Of a stretch of 64,000 nt of DNA, positions 2,855 to 59,158 are shown piece after piece. Within the stretch, counting starts at the first letter, position 1. Each line of letters starts with the position of its first letter. The DNA comes from Nitrosopumilus sp. (GTDB lineage Archaea; Thermoproteota; Nitrososphaeria; Nitrososphaerales; Nitrosopumilaceae): positions 1,472,001 to 1,536,000 of the forward strand of contig OZ245003.1 of NCBI GenBank assembly GCA_965223425.1, in the 5' to 3' direction. Position numbers and translations under genes: made by a program. The notes below the pieces were generated by a model. That model was not told where the DNA came from and searched no databases. It saw only the letters and a list, made by a program, of their open reading frames with translations.

Positions 2855-4228
2855 GGGGTTGTCGCCAAATTCACATCAAGCTGCCACCACCTGAATATTT
2901 CGCCTTGCGGCGCACTCTAGACGGTTTAACACTTCCAAGTTCCATCCTATTGTCTTGCACAGTCCAAACCGCCTTCTTGTGGATGTCTTTCTGAACCTGC
3001 ACAGCAACCTGTGGCCCTCTGTCTCCTCTGCTCCAAATATTCCCTCTATCATGCCTCGTTTTTTGTAGATCTCCCCGTCAAACAGCCCTGCGGCCTTTTT
3101 CCTGAACTTTTTTGTTCTGTTCACGGCATTGCCCCTCTGTTTTATGTTCGGGGTCATGCCGGCACCAAAGACAAGCCTGCAGTTCCTATCAGAATCATAC
3201 CCCCTGTCTGCGTTGAACCTGCCTGCAAAGGCAATGCCTGTCTTTTTGATCTTCTTTAGCAGCGAGGCAAAGACTGTAGTGTCTGCCATCCTGTTGGATG
3301 TGATGCGGCAGGAGAGTATGACCTGCAGGCCCAGTACCGAGGCCACGTGCCATTTCAGGTATTTCTTTTGACGCTTTGCCTCCGGTTTGTGCCTGTTTCT
3401 GGCCTTTTTTTGCACCCTTTCATACCTGTCAGTGGCAACGCCGCTGCTGTCTGATGCCAGCGTGAGATCAGAGGCATCAAATCCTGCAAGGCACGATGCT
3501 GCCGTGACGGCAATCATGTCCTCAAGCCACGCAACAGGAATCTTTTGCATGAACCTGGCAATGGTGCTGTGATCCGGCAGGGGTTCGTTCCACGGCATCC
3601 TCAGCAGGGCTGCAAGATTCTCCATGTCCCTGAATGTAAAGTCAAGGCACACCGTGAGTATGCAGAGAAATGCAAGCTTGTTTTTGTCATGTACCGGTTT
3701 GCGCCCCGCACCAGACCTTCTGGCATGTACGGGACACGGATTTTTCACAATCAAAGAAACTATATGGGACGTGAGAAAATCCAGTTCTTGGGTGTGGGCA
3801 TCGTGATAGTACTTCCAGTACTGATCACGTCTCTTATGACAATTCATTAGAGAACTCACATCCTCCCTGATCAATATGCGTGAAAAATCACAAAATTAGA
3901 TCATTTGGTCGAATTTGGCGACAACCCCCCCTGAATGTAAAGTCAAGGCACACCGTGAGTATGCAGAGAAATGCAAGCTTGTTTTTGTCATGTACCGGTT
4001 TGCGCCCCGCACCAGACCTTCTGGCATGTACGGGACACGGATTTTTCACAATCAAAGAAACTATATGGGATGTGAGAAAATCCAGTTCTTGGGTGTGGGC
4101 ATCGTGATAGTACTTCCAGTACTGATCACGTCTCTTATGGTAAGTCATTGGGAAACCCACACCTCCCTGATCAATATGCGTGAAAAATCACAAAATTAGA
4201 TCATTTGGTCGAATTTGGCGACAACCCC
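2855..4228 (-). mobile_element. IS5/IS4-like element with a duplicated 5' end
   Basis: TIR GGGGTTGTCGCCAAATTC at 2855, with inverse copies ending at 3928 and 4228; TSD CTGCTTCGG at 2846-2854 and 4229-4237. Confidence 0.85.
2876..3874 (-). CDS. IS5/IS4-superfamily DDE transposase
   Basis: PDHSTI, DSSG, ADRGYDS and YKKRGMIE motifs. Confidence 0.85.
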   Translation of the reverse strand: MIREDVSSLMNCHKRRDQYWKYYHDAHTQELDFLTSHIVSLIVKNPCPVHARRSGAGRKPVHDKNKLAFLCILTVCLDFTFRDMENLAALLRMPWNEPLPDHSTIARFMQKIPVAWLEDMIAVTAASCLAGFDASDLTLASDSSGVATDRYERVQKKARNRHKPEAKRQKKYLKWHVASVLGLQVILSCRITSNRMADTTVFASLLKKIKKTGIAFAGRFNADRGYDSDRNCRLVFGAGMTPNIKQRGNAVNRTKKFRKKAAGLFDGEIYKKRGMIEGIFGAEETEGHRLLCRFRKTSTRRRFGLCKTIGWNLEVLNRLECAARRNIQVVAA

Positions 4229-5585
4229 CTGCTTCGGTGACAAGACGCTGTCTAATCTTGCGCGATATGACGACCCGGCGAAGCATTCTTTCTGATTCGT
4301 TGTTTGTGGGATCCATTCCGGGATGCTTTAGAAACGTAAACAGGTTTGGTGTGGCCTTTTCCAGCTTGTCTCCGAACTTGCAGTCCGGACAGCCCTTGTA
4401 CGAATCCGCAATTGCCGTGCAGGAGATCACAAACGAGTCATAATGCGTGTGCGCGTCAGGCCGCAGCGCAACCTGCTTTGCATCGTGGTATAGCAAACGC
4501 AGTTTCTCATACAGCATGGTTTTTGGTTCATCATCACCATCACCATCATCCTGTTCAAATTCGGCATCACACAGTATGCGTGACCAGCACCGTTGAATCG
4601 TTCTGAAACTGTTGTATGCCGCATAACCGTCGACTGTCACGGGAATATCCCAGTGAGGAAAGTGAAGATCCAGTACGGCAGCGGCCCTGCTTCTGTCCAC
4701 ATGAATCAGTACCGCATCATCACCGATGCATACCCAGACATATCCCAGTTTGTCGTATATTGTATATGACGTCTCATCAAGTTTCAGGTATTTTGATCTG
4801 CCAATATTTTCTTTCCATGACTCTACCTCTGACTCTAACGCTCCTCCTAATGCAAACAGCGCGTTTTGTATTGTTTTTTTGCAGATTGACGTGTCATACA
4901 GGCTTGCTGCCTCCCTGATTGAGTTCAGGCTGCAGCTTTGTTTATACATCGACATGGTTATTGTCATGAGGTTCTTGCCAATCGATGTTCCGTCTATTCC
5001 GACCCGGGGCGTTGTGACATGTCCGCACCTGCAGGTGCAGTGCTGTATGACGTTGTTTGTGGATACGGTCCTTGGAATCTCCGGAATGTCGACTGTCATC
5101 TTTGTCGTGGTCTTTGTAACTGTAATGCCTTTGCTGCCGCACTTTGCGCATTTCTTTGGCCTGTGCACCGTTGTGTGACAAGGCCTTCTCTTGTGGGATG
5201 CGCCGACGTGGCCTGCCCTTGCTCCGCCCTTGTTTGGAGGGGGGGAGGGGGGGGAGGAACCGCCTTTTGCACGGTCTGCCTTTTTTCGGCGCGTGGGAAT
5301 GGAGTTTGCCGACGGCGGTGAGTGCGGATTCTCGTAGAACGCTACGCGCCTCTTTAGTTCCGCTATTGTCAAATCCTTCTCGGCTTCCCTTGCCTGTAAT
5401 TTTTTTACATCGCCTGCCAACTGGCTGACAATCTTTCGCAAGCTGTCGTTTTCAGCAAACGATTTTGCCAGAGCATCCCGTAATATCTTGATCTCCGAGT
5501 CACTCATTAGACAGAATCAGGGATCATCGAATTTGGATCAGTATGATCTAGAATGTTTGAGTTCGTGACTAACCTAGCCTCTTAC

Positions 5586-26930: not shown

Positions 26931-27065
26931 TCAATGAGGATTGCCAACCTGATGAGGTCCAGTATTTTCATCATGACAATCACACAAACACAAATGGGTT
27001 TTGTGGTTATTCATACAGTCAATGCATTCGTAATGTTTTCTTGTTTCACAAGCAGCACAAATCAT
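26931..27065 (-). CDS. small Cys/His-rich protein (44 aa, absent from ORF track)
   Basis: MICAACETRKHYECIDC...CLCDCH. Confidence 0.5.
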   Translation of the reverse strand: MICAACETRKHYECIDCMNNHKTHLCLCDCHDENTGPHQVGNPH

Positions 27066-27120
27066 CTTACTAGTAATCAACAATAGATGAATTTGAGTTT
27101 TTTCTCATTTAAAAGGAAAG

Positions 27121-28494
27121 TCAATATTCCACCTCACTTCTTGCAAGTAGGTTATAGGTTAGATCGACATATCCTTGTGGATCAACTTCTTTTGCAAATC
27201 CCTTATCGATGTTTATGAGATAAATGGAATGTAGATGGGCATTTAGAATGTCCTCATACCGGATTGGCGGATTTTTATAGTAACGATCGCAAAGATTCTT
27301 GATTTTATCTACATCTTCTTTCTTCCTTGCATTTGGGGGCAACAAGAAAATTTTTGGTATTGGCAAGATTCCAGTAACAGGACTGGCTAATGAAAACTTT
27401 GAACAGTGCTTGCTATATCTTGAAACTTTACTCATTATTCTGGCAGCATAATAATCAACTGTGTCCATTGCATTCTCAGGAGGAGTAAACCCAGTCTCTA
27501 TTTCAACAATGGTATTCCCATCACCTTTTTTTGCAAAGATATCACATACTAAAATATCTGAAAGCGTCTGCTAAACGGGCCGCAGGCAAGACAGCTTGCA
27601 GCAGACCTGGATGCGGGGCCGGAGTCATGCGGCTTTGAGAGCAGCTTGTGGGATTCCAACCTCGTAAGGCTGCACATCAAGAGAAAGTTCGGCGTGCAGT
27701 ACAGCAAGACAGGTGTGCTGCAGCTGATCAAGGAGGTGGGCTTTTCGTGGAGCAAGGCGCGTCCAAAAAACCCAAAATCCACCTCAAAAAAAGAGCAAAA
27801 AGAGTTTCAGGGACGGGCAAAAAAACCCGTTGCAGAAAAGTCGGCGCAGGGATACGCCGTACCGGCCGGCGATGCATCCTCGATTCAAAGGGCATCAAAC
27901 AGGCCCGGCTACGGGTGGAGAAGGCGCGGCAAGCGCGCCACATCTCCCCCTCTGTTTTGCCACGCAAGAGAAGATACATTTAGAGTCCTGTCAGCAAGCG
28001 CATTTTACTTTATGTTTTATGAAAAGCCAGACAGCGACGGCTTTTGCAGCTTTTTGGAACGGGTTCACAAAAGATTCGGCAAGGTGCTGCTGTCTGTAGA
28101 CAATGCGTCATATCACAAATCCAAAAAGGCAAGGGAGTTTCTGGAAAGATACAATGACGGGATAGTTCTGGAGTACCTGCTGCCGTACACGCCGGAGCTT
28201 AATCCCATTGAGATGCAGTGGAGGGTAATAAAACGGGTACTGTCTGCAAAAGTGTTTGGCACGCTAGATGAGATGGAGCAGTCAGTACGCACGCTGTTTG
28301 CCAGAAAGGAGATCCTGCCTGTGAAAATGTTCAATTATTTAATGTGCTAACTATGTTGTCCTTCTGATCCTAGGCGGACTGACTTTTCGTACAATTGAGA
28401 CATAATTTAGTTTGGGCACATCATTTTCTTTGAGATTTTTGGACAGTTTCTCAGTCATCTCATAGACGTCGTTACGGAATTTTTCCAAATCCAT
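27121..28494 (-). pseudogene. host gene (PD-(D/E)XK-like motif) disrupted by IS630
   Basis: N-terminus MDLEKFRNDVYEM at 28494-28400; C-terminal part CDIFAKKGDG..VEIETG at 27570-27121. Confidence 0.65.
27573..28353 (+). mobile_element. 5'-truncated IS630 element
   Basis: DNASYH and PELNPIE motifs; right end ATGTGCTAACTA as in the other copies. Confidence 0.9.
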
Positions 28495-28631
28495 GATTCA
28501 AAACTATGTAATCTTATGTGCCCCGATCAAGGAAATCAGATGATAAGAGTGGTTCTGGTTCAGAAAACAGAGCCGGTACTGCAAGGATCAGAAATGCAAA
28601 CAAACACACAACCCCAGATCCGAGGATATGC

Positions 28632-29672
28632 ATGTCAGCTGTCTTTGTCGGCCTGGATGTCCACAAGAAGACCATCCAGATGTCAGTCATGGATGAAAAC
28701 GGCGAGGAACTGCTCAACAAAGAGATAGCAAACACAGCCGAAGACATCAGGTACAACATAGGCTGTTTGCACAAGGACTCGAAGCTTGTGATGGAATCCT
28801 CGTCTGTCTGGAAGGCGCCGTTCTTTCAGATAAGAGACGAGCTAAGCATGGACGTGTCGCTGTCAAACCCGTACACCACCAAGCTCATAGCAGAGTCCAA
28901 AAAGAAGACTGACAAGGTGGATGCCAGAATTCTGGCAGACATGCACAGGGGAGGATACATAGTATCGTGCCACGTACCCACGTTGCAGAACATGAACAAC
29001 AGGGACCTGGTGAATTACCGGCACAACCTGGTACGCCACAGGACAGGACTGAAGAACTCCATACACGGCATACTGCTGCAGAGATCGATTCGGCCTGACG
29101 GCAAGCCGTTTTGCGGGCCATGGATTGCGCAGGTTCGAAAGATAAGCGACTATAGGATAGACTCGTACCTGGACACGATAAACAGCATAAACGACAAGAT
29201 ACTCCAGTCAGATGCAAGGGTGCGCCAGGCAGCAAAGGAGAACGAGGATGCAACTCTGCTGCAGACCGTTCCGGGTGTCGGGGCATACTCTGCACTGGTC
29301 ATTGCATGTACAATAGACGGCATAGGAAGGTTCGTCAACTCGCACAAGCTGTGCTCTTATGTCGGCGTTGTTCCGTCTGTGAGATCCTCCGGCGAGTCCG
29401 TGCACTATGGACACATAACGCACCATGGAAGCAGCATATGCAGGTGGGTTCTGACAGAGTGCGTCTTGTCGCATGTAAGGTATGCGCCAGAGTCTGACAT
29501 TTCGATATTCTACAAGAGGCTTGCAAAGAGGAGGGGCAAGGGACGTGCATCAGTGGCTGCTGCCTCAAAGCTGCTGCGAGTCATTTACCGCATGCTCAAG
29601 GAGAGAAGGGCGTTTGTTACAAATTACAGTCAGGATGCCAATTGCGATGAACTCGTTGAGGGACAGACCTAG
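28632..29672 (+). CDS. IS110-family DEDD recombinase
   Basis: GLDVHK, MES, KTDKVDA, VPGVG and RSSG motifs; likely start MSAVFVG. Confidence 0.95.
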   Translation: MSAVFVGLDVHKKTIQMSVMDENGEELLNKEIANTAEDIRYNIGCLHKDSKLVMESSSVWKAPFFQIRDELSMDVSLSNPYTTKLIAESKKKTDKVDARILADMHRGGYIVSCHVPTLQNMNNRDLVNYRHNLVRHRTGLKNSIHGILLQRSIRPDGKPFCGPWIAQVRKISDYRIDSYLDTINSINDKILQSDARVRQAAKENEDATLLQTVPGVGAYSALVIACTIDGIGRFVNSHKLCSYVGVVPSVRSSGESVHYGHITHHGSSICRWVLTECVLSHVRYAPESDISIFYKRLAKRRGKGRASVAAASKLLRVIYRMLKERRAFVTNYSQDANCDELVEGQT

Positions 29673-29880
29673 TAGTCTGTATGCCTCGCCTTGTAATTGC
29701 ATTATACCCTGATAAAAGAATGGAGAATGATACTGAGGGATTGCCTCTGTGATTGCCTCGGATGGATAACTGTTCGCCTCTTTGTTGTCTTGGGCCTTTG
29801 CGGTCTGGAAATAATCCTAGCTTGTGCCGTACCTGTCAGGATGAAAAATGTTGGGAATTCTTATAAGGATGGCACATGGA
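29630..29880 (+). ncRNA. candidate bridge/seek RNA of the IS1111-type element
   Basis: TGAACTCGT (29648-29656) and TTGTA (29691-29695) match the target; ATGGATAA (29762-29769) matches the donor junction; stem-loops present; boundaries approximate. Confidence 0.6.
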
Positions 29881-29956
29881 TACGAGTTCACGTCCCCTTA
29901 CAAATAGGCGCGAATTTTACGGAATTTGTGTTGTTTACGCAGAGTAGGTGAACTCA

Positions 29957-31330
29957 TATCCATGTGCCATCCTTATAAGAATTCCCAACATTTTTCATCC
30001 TGACAGGTACGGCACAAGCTAGGATTATTTCCAGACCGCAAAGGCCCAAGACAACAAAGAGGCGAACAGTTATCCATCCGAGGCAATCACAGAGGCAATC
30101 CCTCAGTATCATTCTCCATTCTTTTATCAGGGTATAATGCAATTACAAGGCGAGGCATACAGACTACTAGGTCTGTCCCTCAACGAGTTCATCGCAATTG
30201 GCATCCTGACTGTAATTTGTAACAAACGCCCTTCTCTCCTTGAGCATGCGGTAAATGACTCGCAGCAGCTTTGAGGCAGCAGCCACTGATGCACGTCCCT
30301 TGCCCCTCCTCTTTGCAAGCCTCTTGTAGAATATCGAAATGTCAGACTCTGGCGCATACCTTACATGCGACAAGACGCACTCTGTCAGAACCCACCTGCA
30401 TATGCTGCTTCCATGGTGCGTTATGTGTCCATAGTGCACGGACTCGCCGGAGGATCTCACAGACGGAACAACGCCGACATAAGAGCACAGCTTGTGCGAG
30501 TTGACGAACCTTCCTATGCCGTCTATTGTACATGCAATGACCAGTGCAGAGTATGCCCCGACACCCGGAACGGTCTGCAGCAGAGTTGCATCCTCGTTCT
30601 CCTTTGCTGCCTGGCGCACCCTTGCATCTGACTGGAGTATCTTGTCGTTTATGCTGTTTATCGTGTCCAGGTACGAGTCTATCCTATAGTCGCTTATCTT
30701 TCGAACCTGCGCAATCCATGGCCCGCAAAACGGCTTGCCGTCAGGCCGAATCGATCTCTGCAGCAGTATGCCGTGTATGGAGTTCTTCAGTCCTGTCCTG
30801 TGGCGTACCAGGTTGTGCCGGTAATTCACCAGGTCCCTGTTGTTCATGTTCTGCAACGTGGGTACGTGGCACGATACTATGTATCCTCCCCTGTGCATGT
30901 CTGCCAGAATTCTGGCATCCACCTTGTCAGTCTTCTTTTTGGACTCTGCTATGAGCTTGGTGGTGTACGGGTTTGACAGCGACACGTCCATGCTTAGCTC
31001 GTCTCTTATCTGAAAGAACGGCGCCTTCCAGACAGACGAGGATTCCATCACAAGCTTCGAGTCCTTGTGCAAACAGCCTATGTTGTACCTGATGTCTTCG
31101 GCTGTGTTTGCTATCTCTTTGTTGAGCAGTTCCTCGCCGTTTTCATCCATGACTGACATCTGGATGGTCTTCTTGTGGACATCCAGGCCGACAAAGACAG
31201 CTGACATGCATATCCTCGGATCTGGGGTTGTGTGTTTGTTTGCATTTCTGATCCTTGCAGTACCGGCTCTGTTTTCTGAACCAGAACCACTCTTATCATC
31301 TGATTTCCTTGATCGGGGCACATAAGATTA
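29957..31330 (-). mobile_element. IS110-family (IS1111-type) element, copy 2
   Basis: Inverted 1374-bp copy of 28509-29882 encoding an identical protein. Confidence 0.88.
30167..31207 (-). CDS. IS110-family DEDD recombinase
   Basis: Identical translation to copy 1. Confidence 0.95.
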   Translation of the reverse strand: MSAVFVGLDVHKKTIQMSVMDENGEELLNKEIANTAEDIRYNIGCLHKDSKLVMESSSVWKAPFFQIRDELSMDVSLSNPYTTKLIAESKKKTDKVDARILADMHRGGYIVSCHVPTLQNMNNRDLVNYRHNLVRHRTGLKNSIHGILLQRSIRPDGKPFCGPWIAQVRKISDYRIDSYLDTINSINDKILQSDARVRQAAKENEDATLLQTVPGVGAYSALVIACTIDGIGRFVNSHKLCSYVGVVPSVRSSGESVHYGHITHHGSSICRWVLTECVLSHVRYAPESDISIFYKRLAKRRGKGRASVAAASKLLRVIYRMLKERRAFVTNYSQDANCDELVEGQT

Positions 31331-31478
31331 CAAAACTATCTAGTTTTTCGGGGTTTAAGAGTTAGTTGTGATTCAACATGTTTCGTCTCAAGGCACAAAT
31401 CGAGTAAATTACTCAAATAAAATTGAAAAATGAGTAATTTTTCTTCATACTTTGTCTTAACAACAAAAATCAGAATGA

Positions 31479-32408
31479 TTGTCCGTGTTCAAAAACAAGG
31501 CTATAACGATAGGATTATTCTCATTTTTAATGCTCCTTTCGTTTATTCCATCTATAGATGCAAAGCTATGGGAGCTAGTAGTCGATGTAAATGTAGAAAA
31601 AGGAGTAATCCATTCAGGCGAAACAGTAGTAATTTCCGGAAAAGTTGTAGATCATGCGTACAAGCCAATGGGTGAGGTCGAGGTATTCATCAGAACAGGT
31701 GCAGATACAACAAAGATATTCACAAACCCAGAAGGCGAGTTTAGAGGTGAATTCAAAAATCTGGAAAGAGTACCGGCAACGTATACAGTTAACGTAGTTG
31801 CATCATGGAACGGAATGACCGGTTTATCAAGCACACAGTTTCAGGTGAAAGGCGATGCAACGCCAGTTTCAGTATTGCAGAAAAAACTAGCTACGGATGA
31901 AGCAAAAAAATATCTAAGCGCTAATGAAAGTGACTTTGAGAAGAATCCAATCGGGCAAACTTTGTTCAAATACTATCATGGTTTATTACAAGAATTAATT
32001 GCAGAAAAGAAAGAAAATGAGAAAATTTCAGAAGAGCAGGTTCGCTTAGAACAACAAAGACAGGTTGCTGACGAATTGAGAAATCAAGATGTCGAATTTT
32101 ATAATCCAAGTTCTGGAATTTATGACGGATATCAATATGACGACTATATTAGAAATCTAAATCCAGAAATAAGAGACTTGGTTACAGGTCAACTCAACTT
32201 TACGAAAAATACGTTTGAAGAGGCGCAGAAAGCAAGAGATGAGATTCTGGCAAATGGGGGGACATATGAGGAAGCCAGGCAGGCATATTTGGACATTGTT
32301 TCAATTCCAAAAGAGATTCTTGAGCAATTCAGCCAAAACAAAGTAGATGTGGAGCCAGAAGATGATTCTGAAGAAGAATCCAGTGAGGAGAACTCAGACA
32401 ACCAATGA
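31479..32408 (+). CDS. exported protein with Ig/carboxypeptidase-regulatory-like domain
   Basis: Signal peptide; ISGKVVD...TNPEGEF; acidic tail. Confidence 0.7.
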   Translation: MSVFKNKAITIGLFSFLMLLSFIPSIDAKLWELVVDVNVEKGVIHSGETVVISGKVVDHAYKPMGEVEVFIRTGADTTKIFTNPEGEFRGEFKNLERVPATYTVNVVASWNGMTGLSSTQFQVKGDATPVSVLQKKLATDEAKKYLSANESDFEKNPIGQTLFKYYHGLLQELIAEKKENEKISEEQVRLEQQRQVADELRNQDVEFYNPSSGIYDGYQYDDYIRNLNPEIRDLVTGQLNFTKNTFEEAQKARDEILANGGTYEEARQAYLDIVSIPKEILEQFSQNKVDVEPEDDSEEESSEENSDNQ

Positions 32409-32682
32409 ACAGTTGATAAATTCTATATGTGCCTTGTATTCAAAATCACGCAATACAATATGATGAAGATAGATATTCCATTACCATGCCCATCTTGTGA
32501 AGGGAAAACGTACTCTGTGAGATAGACGGCATTTTCAGTCCTTAAAAAAAGAAGTTGGCAAATATGTAAAGAATGTAATTTTGAAAGAACTTCTGAAGAT
32601 TGCAAAAATTCCTCTGCTGTACATTACAGCATTTTTCACTTTTCTCAACAGTTTTTAATCCAGGTTAGGCACAAAAAACGAT

Positions 32683-33018
32683 TTGAAGGTATTTTACAAG
32701 CCAGCATGCATAACATGCAAAAAAACGATCTCAGAGATCAGGAGGATGAAGGCAGATATTGAAAAGAGGGATTTCTTCAAGGAGCCGTTCTCAGAGCATG
32801 AATTGAGAGGGATTATCAAAATGACAGGAAAAAGACCATCAGAACTCCTTAGAAAAAGGGACAGGATGTACAGGGAACTAAACTTTGAAGACTGCAAAAG
32901 GACAGACGCCCAGATTATCAAACTGATGGCAAAACATCCAGGATTGATTTTAAGACCAATTGTCATTGCAAGAGGTAAGGCATTTGCAGGAAAGATAGAC
33001 GCACAAAGTCTGAAATAG
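32683..33018 (+). CDS. ArsC/Spx-family protein
   Basis: YKPACITC and HPGLILRPIV motifs. Confidence 0.85.
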   Translation: MKVFYKPACITCKKTISEIRRMKADIEKRDFFKEPFSEHELRGIIKMTGKRPSELLRKRDRMYRELNFEDCKRTDAQIIKLMAKHPGLILRPIVIARGKAFAGKIDAQSLK

Positions 33019-57632: not shown

Positions 57633-59158
57633 GTATGAATTCACCTACCCTGCCTAATCAAAAAATTTGATCATCTGATCCATATATTGCCTGTTTGCTA
57701 CCATTTTCATGGGGTCAAGGCCGACAAACAGGGAACTTGAAGAGACCCTGCGTTCTGCTACAGACAGGATAGCAACACTCCAGTCAAAATTTAATGTACT
57801 GCTAGATAAAAACAAACAACAAGAAAGGGCCATCGAGTATTACCAGCGCATGTTATCATACTATCAAAATCCCAACACCCCGCCGTCTGCTGACTCGCTT
57901 GAATGGAAGAGGCAAAAGAGGGAGCGTGCACAGCAAAGAAAAGACGGGGAGGGCAACGACAACAACAACGGCAAGCCCGGCGGCAGGACAGGGCACGCCG
58001 GAGTATCGCGGCATCACAGCCCACAGAGAAGACAGCGGCACGACTTTGAGCGCAGACAATCAGGCAGAAGCACCAAAAGAATCCTTCCAAGATGCAGGTG
58101 CGGCAAGGCCATGGTTTTGGGCGACCCCCGCGTACGGGACATCATCGAGATGGAGGTCACCGCACACGAGACCCGCCACCGCATAGAGACTGCAGTCTGC
58201 ACGTCGTGCGGCCATACAGAGGAGGCGCCAAACGGCGACCTGCCAAGACTCGGATCGTACGGCAAGAAGATGGCAGGGTTTGTCTCTGAGCTGCGCGCCG
58301 CCCGCGTCCCGCTCAAGGTCATACCGCGCATCATACACTCTGTTGCCAGAGTCAGCATGTCTGCCTCCACTGCAAACAGCATCATGGCACGCACCGCAGA
58401 CGCGCTGGAAGGCCAGGCATCTGAGATAGCAAAGAACGTGGCCAAATCAGAAAGCGCCGGGTTTGATGAGACCATGCATCGCGACTGCGGCACCAAAAAG
58501 CAGACGAACGTGGCCCAGTCCGGGAAAAACATCTCGATACAGATCAGCCCAAGCAGGGCCACCCTGATGCTTGATTCGATGGACTATGACGGCATAGCGG
58601 TAACTGACGCATACAGGGGGTACGACAGGTTCAATGCAGAGGACAGACACCAGCTGTGCTGGTCGCACGACATACGCAAGGCAAAAACCCTGGCAGAAAA
58701 ATACGATCCCCTCTTGGATGACGGCAGGCGGAAAAAACGGCGGCAGTACCTCGAGGACCTGCGGTTTGTGTTCAAGGAGGCAAAACACGTCGCACGGCTG
58801 GGGGCGCACTCGCGGAGGCAGCGGCACGTCATGGAGGACACCCTGGCAGACGTTCTTGACCGGTACTGCGGCACGGATGATGCAGACCTGCACAAGCTTG
58901 TCATGATGATGTACCGGCACCTTCCGCACCTGTTTACGTTTGTCCAGTACGCCGGGGTGGAGCCGACTAACAACGCATCAGAGAGGGCGCTGCGCTATAT
59001 GGTGGTGTTCCGGAAGATAAGCGGGCAGACCAAGGGCGGCAGCAAGTCCATGAAGCGCCTAGGAGATTTTGTAAGCTGCGTCCTGACGTGGCAGAATCAC
59101 GGCAAGAGCGTGGCGCAAGAGGTTGCCAGACTGATATAAGGGGCAGGTGAACTCATAC
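57633..59158 (+). mobile_element. intact IS66-family element (single TnpC, 57709-59139)
   Basis: TIRs GTATGAATTCAC/GTGAACTCATAC; 8-bp TSD CAATCATC; DET, QLCWSH and PTNNASER motifs. Confidence 0.95.

What the first reader, a model, noticed from the sequence alone, without database searches (positions are those of the whole stretch)
29630..29880. Candidate bridge RNA whose guide segments match the IS66 TIR and the donor junction
Seen: TGAACTCGT (29648-29656) matches the target strand GTGAACTCRTAC. TTGTA (29691-29695) is the reverse complement of the core plus flank TACA(A). These two segments face each other in an internal loop between an outer stem (ATGCCAAT/ATTGCAT) and an inner stem (GAGG-ACAGAC/GTCTGT-CCTC). 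ATGGATAA (29762-29769) matches the predicted circle junction cATGGA-TA-Atc. The target loop overlaps the last transposase codons. Established: IS110 bridge/seek RNAs carry target- and donor-binding loops, located 3' of the ORF in IS1111-type elements. Inference: a reprogrammable archaeal bridge recombinase with a TA core. The left donor guide is not convincingly visible.
Basis: partly seen in the sequence, partly recalled or inferred. Interest (0 to 1): 0.85.

Follow-up and report, generated by a model that had tools for sequence, protein, structure and literature searches.

The report
Bridge RNA of an archaeal IS
The stretch encodes the guide ("bridge") RNA at the tail of an IS110-family jumping gene in an archaeon, a known kind of RNA-guided DNA insertion system that here aims at the ends of another jumping gene.

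Summary
Window 28509-29882 (+) and 29957-31330 (-) are two identical, intact IS110-family elements of the IS1111 type. Each sits at GTA|YGAGTTCAC in one terminal inverted repeat of an 80-bp miniature derivative of an IS66-family element. The 3' non-coding end (core 29628-29800) folds into a two-loop RNA shared with relatives in the same archaeal class: 24 of 26 consensus pairs form here, and 17 of 26 show compensatory changes. Across these relatives all four loop segments covary with their DNA partners:
- the 5' target guide with the right flank;
- the 3' target guide with the left flank plus the TA core;
- the 5' donor segment with the left end of the element;
- the 3' donor segment with the right end plus TA.

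Permutation tests gave 0 to 4 of 3000-5000 shuffles reaching the observed value. A second family in the same genome has different guides that match its own, different target. The guide order matches published IS1111 seekRNAs. No expression data could be obtained, and reprogrammability is untested. This is a new, well-documented member of a known kind. Two points are modestly new: one-sided target pairing, and a conserved archaeal BRE/TATA-like box at the right end.

The parts
28509..29882 (+). IS copy A (IS110 family, IS1111 type), bounded by the TA core at 28509-28510 and 29881-29882; 1372 bp counting one core
   Evidence: Filled and empty sites compared in the genome. Identical to copy B over its whole length.
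28516..28522 (+). Left subterminal inverted repeat ATGTGCC, 5 nt inside the core
   Evidence: Read from the sequence. The same motif is present in relatives.
28635..29672 (+). Recombinase gene (345 aa from the ATG that relatives share); its last 13-14 codons run through the target loop
   Evidence: Intact only in copies A and B of the four uninterrupted copies.
29628..29800 (+). Bridge/seek RNA core. Helices: P1 29629-36/29706-13, P2 29642-46/29698-702, P3 29659-61/29684-86, P4a 29718-22/29771-75, P5 29734-38/29756-60
   Evidence: Covariance model R1 scores 101.4 bits. 24 of 26 consensus pairs form here.
29648..29656 (+). [quoted passage not shown]
   Evidence: Family covariation.
29689..29695 (+). 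3' target guide CCTTG plus core TA; identical to the top strand left of the insertion point, so it would pair with the bottom strand
   Evidence: Family covariation. In this element only G plus TA is constant across its six sites.
29727..29731 (+). 5' donor guide ATGAT; complementary to left-end positions +1 to +5 (ATCTT) at 4 of 5 positions
29761..29768 (+). 3' donor guide GATGGA plus core TA; identical to the right-end terminus ...CATGGATA
29854..29867 (+). BRE/TATA-like box (GGAAT..CTTATAAG), 16-29 nt from the right terminus and facing outward
   Evidence: A TATA-like hexamer at this position in 31 of 40 distinct right ends, against 0 and 2 of 40 in two control windows. Function is inferred.
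29871..29877 (+). Right subterminal inverted repeat GGCACAT, 3 nt inside the core
29883..29956 (.). Interior of the IS66-derived miniature element. Its outermost GTA and TAC lie at 28508-28510 and 31329-31331, and both terminal repeats are occupied
   Evidence: An empty copy lies at C1:2012427-2012506.
29957..31330 (-). IS copy B, identical to A; its bridge RNA is at 30039-30211 (-)
28500..28507 (.). 8-bp target-site duplication AAAACTAT of the miniature element; the second copy is at 31332-31339
57634..59158 (+). IS66-family element with terminal repeats GTATGA[AG]TTCACCT and duplication CAATCATC; an unoccupied example of the target

Best explanation
Window 29628-29800 encodes the bridge (seek) RNA of an IS1111-type IS110-family insertion sequence of an archaeon.

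Inferred mechanism, by analogy with IS621 and with ISEc11, ISPa11 and ISKpn4:
- The element excises as a circle in which the right and left ends are joined at a TA core.
- The RNA, made from the strand that also encodes the recombinase and probably as its 3' extension, folds into two internal loops.
- In the target loop, the 5' segment TGAACTCGT pairs with the top strand to the right of the insertion point (A-CGAGTTCA). The 3' segment CCTTG-TA pairs with the bottom strand to its left.
- In the donor loop, ATGAT pairs with the first bases of the left end, and GATGGA-TA pairs with the last bases of the right end.
- The DEDD/Ser recombinase then exchanges strands at TA.

This places the element between GTA and YGAGTTCAC of the terminal repeat of an IS66-family element or its miniature derivative, in one orientation.

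Shown here: the anatomy, the insertion sites, the conserved structure, and the guide-to-DNA covariation. Inferred: transcription, protein binding, chemistry and programmability.
For: 1. Protein family: Pfam DEDD_Tnp_IS110 (E 1.6e-23) and Transposase_20 (E 1.7e-17); NCBIfam NF033542 at 215.9 bits against a cut-off of 140; distant matches to the solved ISCro4 and IS621 recombinases.
2. Precise ends come from filled and empty sites. Five of six insertions lie at G-TA|YGAGTTCAC of the miniature element. The sixth lies at a site with one mismatch, CGTGTTCA, that is not an IS66 end.
3. Structure: on a MAFFT alignment of 18 RNAs, 95.0% of cells pair against 35.6-46.0% when partners are slid. 17 of 26 pairs have compensatory changes, against a shuffled mean of 8.9 (0 of 500 shuffles). 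Several pairs are near-invariant G-U, which fits RNA of this strand.
4. The model finds this RNA on the recombinase strand in 25 of 151 genomes of the class and at 12 places in the own genome.
5. 5' target guide against the right flank, 37 distinct guides:
   - fixed register: 169 matches against 114.4 expected, 0 of 5000 shuffles;
   - summed longest exact run: 214 against 114.4, 0 of 5000; 16 of 37 guides have a run of at least 7 nt, against 1.6% of shuffled pairs;
   - thinned to 18 dissimilar guides: 98 against 56.4, 0 of 5000.
6. 3' target guide against the 6 nt left of the core: 90 of 150 against 37.6, 0 of 5000; shifted registers give nothing. Thinned to 12 guides: 45 of 72 against 17.7, 0 of 5000.
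7. Donor loop: the 3' segment against the right end gives 92 against 80.9 (4 of 5000). The 5' segment against the left end gives 103 against 86.1 (0 of 3000), in one register only.
8. A second family in the same genome (3 copies) has the guide TTTTATGCGT against flanks TA|YGCATAAAG, and GCAAT-TA against left flanks ...CAAT|TA.
9. The guide order (top-strand-complementary segment 5' of the bottom-strand-complementary one) and the downstream location are what Siddiquee et al. report for IS1111 seekRNAs (PMC11187229, abstract and section 9).
Against: - No evidence that the RNA is made: the sequencing-run tool could not be reached in 7 attempts.
- Thermodynamics alone give no support: the 258-nt fold has a z-score of -0.35, and 66 of 200 shuffles fold as well.
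- No Rfam family matches. The only hits are two below-threshold microRNA models that lie on the large inverted repeat.
- For this element the 3' target guide matches only G plus TA constantly, and 2-3 of its 5 variable positions at each of the six sites. The 5' donor guide has one mismatch.
- ATGGATAA alone is at chance frequency in the window.
- Donor-loop covariation rests on few variants: 15 distinct guide/end combinations.
- Ends of single-copy relatives were placed by motif, and 12 of 55 rows gave no right end.
- Related elements are not independent, so the permutation counts overstate significance, although thinning did not change the result.
- A decayed 90%-identical copy has a changed guide that does not match its flank.
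Confidence: 0.85

Rival explanations
1. The RNA exists but works only as a target seeker: the first domain is the short seekRNA. The element's own ends are then recognised by the protein through the subterminal inverted repeats, and the second domain is a scaffold whose likeness to the ends is a by-product of the ends being near-palindromic.
For: Donor-side covariation is weaker and rests on few variants (92 against 80.9, 4 of 5000, 15 combinations; 103 against 86.1). The two ends are near inverted repeats (TAACCAT / ATGGATA), so one conserved motif could explain both segments. Siddiquee et al. describe target matches in 82-96-nt RNAs, and the sections I read do not describe donor matches (PMC11187229 section 9). 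In this element the 5' donor segment has a mismatch.
Against: The two loops have the same geometry: helix, G, guide, TA, 2-3 nt, helix. TA is at the core position of the second loop in 46 of 53 RNAs. Changes such as ATGGATA/ATAGATA/ATGGGTA and ACCAT/ACTAT/GTCAT track the ends, and only in one register. Durrant et al. report donor loops in IS1111 members (PMC11208160, Fig. 6 legend and text).
Confidence: 0.08
2. The conserved 3' end acts as DNA and no guide RNA is involved. It would hold recombinase binding sites, or remnants of captured target sequence.
For: No transcript was shown. The first guide is a copy of the target's bottom strand, which could in principle be a captured fragment.
Against: The helices keep pairing through compensatory changes and through near-invariant G-U pairs, which would be A-C on the other strand. 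Guides differ between families and follow their own targets on both sides of the core. The family is experimentally RNA-guided (PMC11208160, PMC11187229).
Confidence: 0.03
3. The system is a relic in this genome. The RNA gene is intact in sequence, but the element no longer moves.
For: Two of the four uninterrupted copies carry frameshifts (a 1-nt deletion at the equivalent of 28808; a 2-nt insertion at 29455) and two further copies are split by other insertions. At least 8 perfect GTAYGAGTTCAC targets are unoccupied.
Against: Copies A and B are identical over 1374 bp and have intact 346-aa frames. Six copies are at least 99% identical. This points to recent movement.
Confidence: 0.04

Closest known systems
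IS1111-group seekRNA / bridge RNA (ISEc11, ISPa11, ISKpn4, ISPst6; Siddiquee et al. 2024, PMC11187229; IS1111 predictions in Durrant et al. 2024, PMC11208160)
   Same: DEDD plus PF02371 recombinase of about 330-350 aa. Subterminal inverted repeats. Long non-coding region downstream of the gene. An RNA on the gene's strand whose top-strand-complementary target match lies 5' of the bottom-strand-complementary one, with the two matches overlapping at the core. Site- and orientation-specific insertion.
   Different: The host is an archaeon. The core is TA. The target loop overlaps the end of the reading frame in this copy. At its natural sites only one target guide (9 nt) is fully matched. The right end carries a BRE/TATA-like box rather than a bacterial -35 element. 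Whether the protein clusters with the bacterial IS1111 clade was not tested.
IS621 / ISCro4 bridge RNA (IS110 group; Durrant et al. 2024; Hiraizumi et al. 2024, search listing only)
   Same: Two internal loops, one for the target and one for the donor. Each loop has two guide segments pairing with opposite strands on either side of a shared core dinucleotide. The recombinase fold family is the same (PDB sequence matches at E 3e-10 and 5e-9).
   Different: In IS621 the RNA lies in the left end, upstream of the gene. There the 5' segment of each loop pairs with the bottom strand on the left and the 3' segment with the top strand on the right (PMC11208160). Here the order is reversed and the RNA lies in the right end. 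The IS621 core is CT; here it is TA.
[quoted passage not shown]
   Same: An IS1111-type element that inserts at a fixed position and orientation inside the terminal repeat of another transposable element.
   Different: A different target element (IS66 family and its miniature derivative) and a different domain of life. The insertion point is only 3 bp from the outer end, so the left flank is variable host DNA.

Membership tests
IS110 family (DEDD recombinase elements) | N-terminal RuvC-like DEDD domain (PF01548) and C-terminal PF02371 domain with the conserved Ser-Gly | tested here: met
   Pfam E 1.6e-23 and 1.7e-17. NCBIfam NF033542 at 215.9 bits against a cut-off of 140. GVVPSVRSSG in the translation fits the G--P----SG motif quoted in PMC11187229 section 6.
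IS110 family (DEDD recombinase elements) | Scarless, site-specific insertion with no target duplication of its own; the same short core at both junctions | tested here: met
   Filled and empty sites show TSD-G-TA-[IS]-TA-YGAGTTCAC against the empty GTAYGAGTTCAC. The 8-bp duplications belong to the IS66-type host element.
IS1111 group | Subterminal inverted repeats of 7-17 bp | tested here: met
   ATGTGCC at 28516-22 and GGCACAT at 29871-77, 5 and 3 nt inside the core. The CACAT/ATGTG part is present in relatives.
IS1111 group | Right non-coding end longer than the left, with the RNA downstream of the gene | tested here: met
   The left end is 124 nt (28511-28634). The right end is about 210 nt after the stop codon, or about 250 nt after the stop position that relatives use.
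IS1111 group | Recombinase clusters with IS1111 transposases in a phylogeny | not tested
   No ISfinder reference sequences were on hand.
Bridge / seek RNA | Conserved structured RNA with two internal loops | tested here: met
   RNAalifold consensus of five helices; 95.0% of cells paired against at most 46.0% when slid; 17 of 26 pairs compensatory. 24 of 26 pairs form in the window.
Bridge / seek RNA | Target-loop segments complementary to opposite strands on the two sides of the core, covarying with the target | tested here: met
   (0 of 5000 shuffles in each test) and the second family. For this element itself the right side matches 9 of 9 and the left side only G plus TA.
Bridge / seek RNA | Donor-loop segments matching both element ends around the same core | tested here: met
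   (4 of 5000 and 0 of 3000 shuffles; few variants). In the window GATGGATA matches 8 of 8 and ATGAT 4 of 5.
Bridge / seek RNA | The RNA is transcribed and binds the recombinase | not testable with these tools
   The look-up of sequencing runs could not be reached.
Bridge / seek RNA | Changing the guides retargets insertion | not testable with these tools
   Only natural variation was examined. The single off-consensus insertion (copy D) lies at a one-mismatch match to the guide.

The most novel reading that the evidence does not exclude
The Nitrososphaeria-type clade is an archaeal variant of the IS1111 bridge system with two departures from the studied bacterial ones. (a) A subclade that attacks the outermost 3 bp of IS66-type terminal repeats recognises its target essentially through one 9-10-nt guide plus G-TA. 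Its second target guide is kept (YTTTG-TA) but unmatched. (b) Expression after excision is driven by a complete BRE/TATA promoter at the right terminus that fires across the circle junction. This replaces the split -35/-10 junction promoter of bacteria.
Probability: 0.35. Interest if true: 0.55.

Novelty: new member of a known kind. Interest (0 to 1): 0.4.

Why it matters
- It gives a fully delimited natural example of an RNA-guided recombinase in an archaeon. Ends, core, empty site, four guides and six insertion sites are all defined, and a second family with different guides in the same genome serves as an internal control.
- About 50 related RNAs form a ready-made natural data set of guide and target variation.
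- Archaeal IS110 recombinases bear on the proposed descent of Nop5 / C/D-box RNPs from IS110-like elements (preprint 10.1101/2024.06.21.599552). A documented archaeal bridge RNA is useful material for that question.
- The element also shows how one insertion sequence can police or parasitise another by aiming at its terminal repeats.
- It does not change what is known about how these systems work.

Tried and rejected
- **Rfam:** a search of 27000-33000 at E up to 1 gave only mir-4847 and MIR6438, both below their gathering scores and lying on the 1.39-kb inverted repeat. I treat them as artefacts.
- **Single-sequence folding:** the z-score of -0.35 gave no support. The structure rests on comparison between relatives.
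- **Sequencing runs:** The look-up of sequencing runs could not be reached in 7 attempts with the same request. Read laying was therefore not used and there is no expression evidence.
- **Copy D as an IS66 insertion:** rejected. Its flank is the start of another repeat (CAGCTAAGCG..., at least 13 copies), and the site is a one-mismatch match to the guide.
- **The decayed 90%-identical copy (C1:2105157-2105911) as covariation evidence:** its guide has changed but does not match its flank, so it is uninformative.
- **Handshake-like guides:** I checked whether the bases after the core in the 3' segments (AYT, CGT and the like) match the next bases of the left end or of the target. By eye there was no consistent match.
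- **A first regex anchor for the donor loop** hit the wrong site in 7 loci. It was replaced by the covariance-model alignment.
- **Rows dropped before counts:**
  - two rows whose target half is not aligned (L036:2696-2839, L052:1951-2075);
  - rows without a recognisable right end (12 of 55) or left end;
  - duplicates with the same guide.
- **Not used:** Structure prediction, complex prediction and the protein atlas. They were not needed.

Full report
**What is there**

The window holds a 1392-nt perfect inverted repeat (28507-29898 and 29941-31332). Each arm carries a 345-aa open frame with Pfam DEDD_Tnp_IS110 and Transposase_20. NCBIfam files it under NF033542, 'IS110 family RNA-guided transposase', at 215.9 bits against a cut-off of 140. 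The genome (2.64 Mb, 2 contigs) is archaeal: its SSU rRNA scores 1460.5 bits with the archaeal Rfam model and 1090.1 with the bacterial one. The only named homologue among the 120 listed is from a Nitrosopumilus MAG. The class name is therefore inferred, not tested.

**Ends, core and target**

The genome holds six copies that are at least 99% identical, two of them split by other insertions, plus decayed fragments. I aligned their flanks with an empty site (C1:2012427-2012506).
- The element is [TA]ATCTTATGTGCC...GGCACATGGA[TA].
- Five of the six copies sit between GTA and YGAGTTCAC of one terminal repeat of an 80-bp miniature element. That element carries its own 8-bp duplications.
- In the window both terminal repeats of one such element are occupied. 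This explains the tail-to-tail pair and the duplication AAAACTAT at 28500-07 and 31332-39.
- The ends of the miniature element match those of an IS66-family element at 57634-59158. That element has Pfam DDE_Tnp_IS66 at E 1.1e-27, terminal repeats GTATGA[AG]TTCACCT and the duplication CAATCATC.
- The sixth copy (D) lies at CGTGTTCA, next to an unrelated repeat. This is a one-mismatch version of the target and not an IS66 end.
- At least 8 perfect targets are unoccupied.
- Only copies A and B have intact frames. Copy C has a 1-nt deletion and copy D a 2-nt insertion.

**The observation**

- TGAACTCGT (29648-29656) is the exact reverse complement of 29882-29890, which is core A plus the first 8 target bases. 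The window has 3 matches against 0.32 expected.
ATGGATAA alone is not above chance (4 against 3.89 expected).

**Comparison with relatives**

- The protein has homologues in 76 of 401 sampled genomes of the class. This tally includes one unpublished genome, G283, from which nothing else was used.
- Their 3' ends share one architecture.
- A MAFFT alignment of 18 RNAs gives an RNAalifold consensus of five helices. P1, P2 and P3 enclose the first internal loop; P4a and P5 enclose the second.
- 95.0% of cells pair, against 35.6-46.0% when partners are slid. 17 of 26 pairs show compensatory changes, against a shuffled mean of 8.9 (0 of 500 shuffles). Several pairs are near-invariant G-U, which fits an RNA of the recombinase strand.
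- A covariance model built from this alignment finds 12 places in the own genome and matches in 25 of 151 genomes of the class.
- 55 matches were aligned. In the window, 24 of 26 consensus pairs form.

**Guide tests**

I placed right ends by the CACATNGNTN motif (43 of 55 rows) and left ends by T[AG]-N5-ATGTG at the expected distance. I then compared loop segments with flanks and shuffled the flanks among elements as a control.

| Test | n | Observed | Shuffled mean | Shuffles reaching observed |
|---|---|---|---|---|
| 5' target segment vs right flank, fixed register | 37 distinct guides | 169 | 114.4 | 0 of 5000 |
| Same, summed longest exact run | 37 | 214 | 114.4 | 0 of 5000 |
| Same, thinned to dissimilar guides | 18 | 98 | 56.4 | 0 of 5000 |
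| 3' target segment vs 6 nt left of the core | 25 | 90 of 150 | 37.6 | 0 of 5000 |
| Same, thinned | 12 | 45 of 72 | 17.7 | 0 of 5000 |
| 3' donor segment vs right end | 15 distinct combinations | 92 | 80.9 | 4 of 5000 |
| 5' donor segment (reverse complement) vs left end, supported register | 21 | 103 | 86.1 | 0 of 3000 |

- For the 5' target segment, neighbouring registers were weaker. 16 of 37 guides have a run of at least 7 nt, against 1.6% of shuffled pairs.
- For the 3' target segment, four shifted registers gave nothing.
- For the 5' donor segment, the other six registers gave nothing.
- TA occupies the core position of the two 3' segments in 48 and 46 of 53 distinct RNAs.
- Relatives are not independent, so these counts overstate significance. 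The effect sizes are nevertheless large.

A second family in the same genome serves as an internal control. Its three copies carry the guide TTTTATGCGT and sit at TA|YGCATAAAG. Their 3' guide GCAAT-TA matches left flanks ...CAAT|TA.

**This element's guides**

- The right-target guide pairs with all six sites. Copy A has 8 Watson-Crick pairs plus the core. Four sites have one G-T wobble. Copy D has one mismatch.
- The left-target guide CCTTG-TA finds only G-TA constantly, and 2-3 of its 5 variable positions at each of the six sites. This is because the insertion point is 3 bp from the outer end of the terminal repeat, so the left flank is arbitrary host DNA.
- Close relatives with guides YTTTG-TA also sit at xxxxG-TA followed by repeat-like sequence.
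- The donor 3' segment GATGGA-TA matches the right end at 8 of 8 positions. The donor 5' segment ATGAT complements left-end positions +1 to +5 at 4 of 5.

**Comparison with what is known**

- Durrant et al. (PMC11208160; passages) describe two loops. In IS621 the 5' segment of each loop pairs with the bottom strand on the left and the 3' segment with the top strand on the right. They place the RNA in the right end of IS1111 elements and predict one in 93.0% of them.
- Siddiquee et al. (PMC11187229; abstract and sections 6, 9, 13) report that in IS1111 seekRNAs the top-strand-complementary match lies 5' of the bottom-strand-complementary one, the reverse of the IS110 type. That is the order found here.
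- Archaeal IS110 recombinases are known: 662 in one survey (preprint 10.1101/2024.06.21.599552, passages).
- Three literature searches and passages from two 2026 papers turned up no specific account of a Nitrososphaeria bridge RNA.
- Verdict: a new member of a known kind.

**Extras**

- A box YTTAWAAR preceded by GAAAW lies 16-29 nt from the right terminus. A TATA-like hexamer is there in 31 of 40 distinct right ends, against 0 and 2 of 40 in control windows.
- By analogy with the bacterial junction promoter that excision reconstitutes (PMC11208160), I infer an archaeal promoter that fires across the circle junction.
- The stretch just 3' of P4a is complementary to the GATGAAGA stretch that overlaps the 5' strand of P4a: 320 against 295, 0 of 3000 shuffles. 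I cannot tell whether this is an alternative fold or a pseudoknot.

Noticed in passing
window 29854-29867 (and the mirror in copy B): A conserved BRE/TATA-like box (GAAAW + YTTAWAAR) at a fixed 16-29 nt from the right terminus, facing outward. A TATA-like hexamer is present in 31 of 40 distinct right ends of relatives, against 0 and 2 of 40 in control windows. It may form an archaeal junction promoter in the excised circle, and it may read out into flanking DNA when the element is integrated.
   Followed up: partly
window 29717-29726 with 29776-29787; same columns in relatives (alignment A2): The stretch just 3' of helix P4a is complementary to the conserved GATGAAGA stretch that overlaps the 5' strand of P4a: 320 against 295 in shuffles, 0 of 3000. 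This could be an alternative conformation or a pseudoknot; I could not explain it.
   Followed up: partly
own genome C1:323210-323354 (-), 2047354-2047498 (+), 2067432-2067576 (-): A second IS1111-type family, with three copies. Its bridge RNA guides (TTTTATGCGT; GCAAT-TA) match a different target...CAAT-TA-YGCATAAAGTCT. One copy appears to lack one base at the right junction.
   Followed up: partly
window 57634-59158: An IS66-family element with a single 476-aa frame (Pfam DDE_Tnp_IS66; NCBIfam IS66 at 154 bits, below its cut-off of 180). It has an 8-bp duplication, CAATCATC. Its right end is a perfect, unoccupied target for the IS110-family element.
   Followed up: yes
window 27646-28350 (+): A 234-aa frame with Pfam DDE_3 and HTH_33 (IS630/Tc1-like transposase), 150 nt to the left of the composite. 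It looks short and possibly degraded.
   Followed up: no
L031 (G036:C1), right end: The closest relative (73% protein identity) has a tandem duplication of the last ~51 nt of its right end. The duplicated stretch begins with a sequence resembling the element's own target. Its final flank CTTGTTCACGTGG is a variant of the IS66-type repeat targeted here.
   Followed up: no
L036 (G305:C1) and L041 (G135:C1), right flanks: The right flank of these copies begins ACTGCAG... / ACTGCGG..., which is the sequence that follows the core in the target loop of such RNAs. In L036 the flank continues as a partial copy of the RNA gene. This suggests insertion into the guide-encoding DNA of another copy, which is by construction a perfect left-target match.
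   Followed up: no
own genome, e.g. C1:1854828, 972440, 760480: A repeat beginning CAGCTAAGCGAAATCTGCTCTAATTCGGGCC occurs in at least 13 copies of about 155 bp. Copy D of the IS lies against one of them.
   Followed up: no
window 29856-29983: The Rfam microRNA hits (mir-4847 at 30.3 bits against a gathering score of 100; MIR6438 at 25 against 58) are produced by the hairpin-like junction of the two inverted IS copies. They are not RNA genes.
   Followed up: yes
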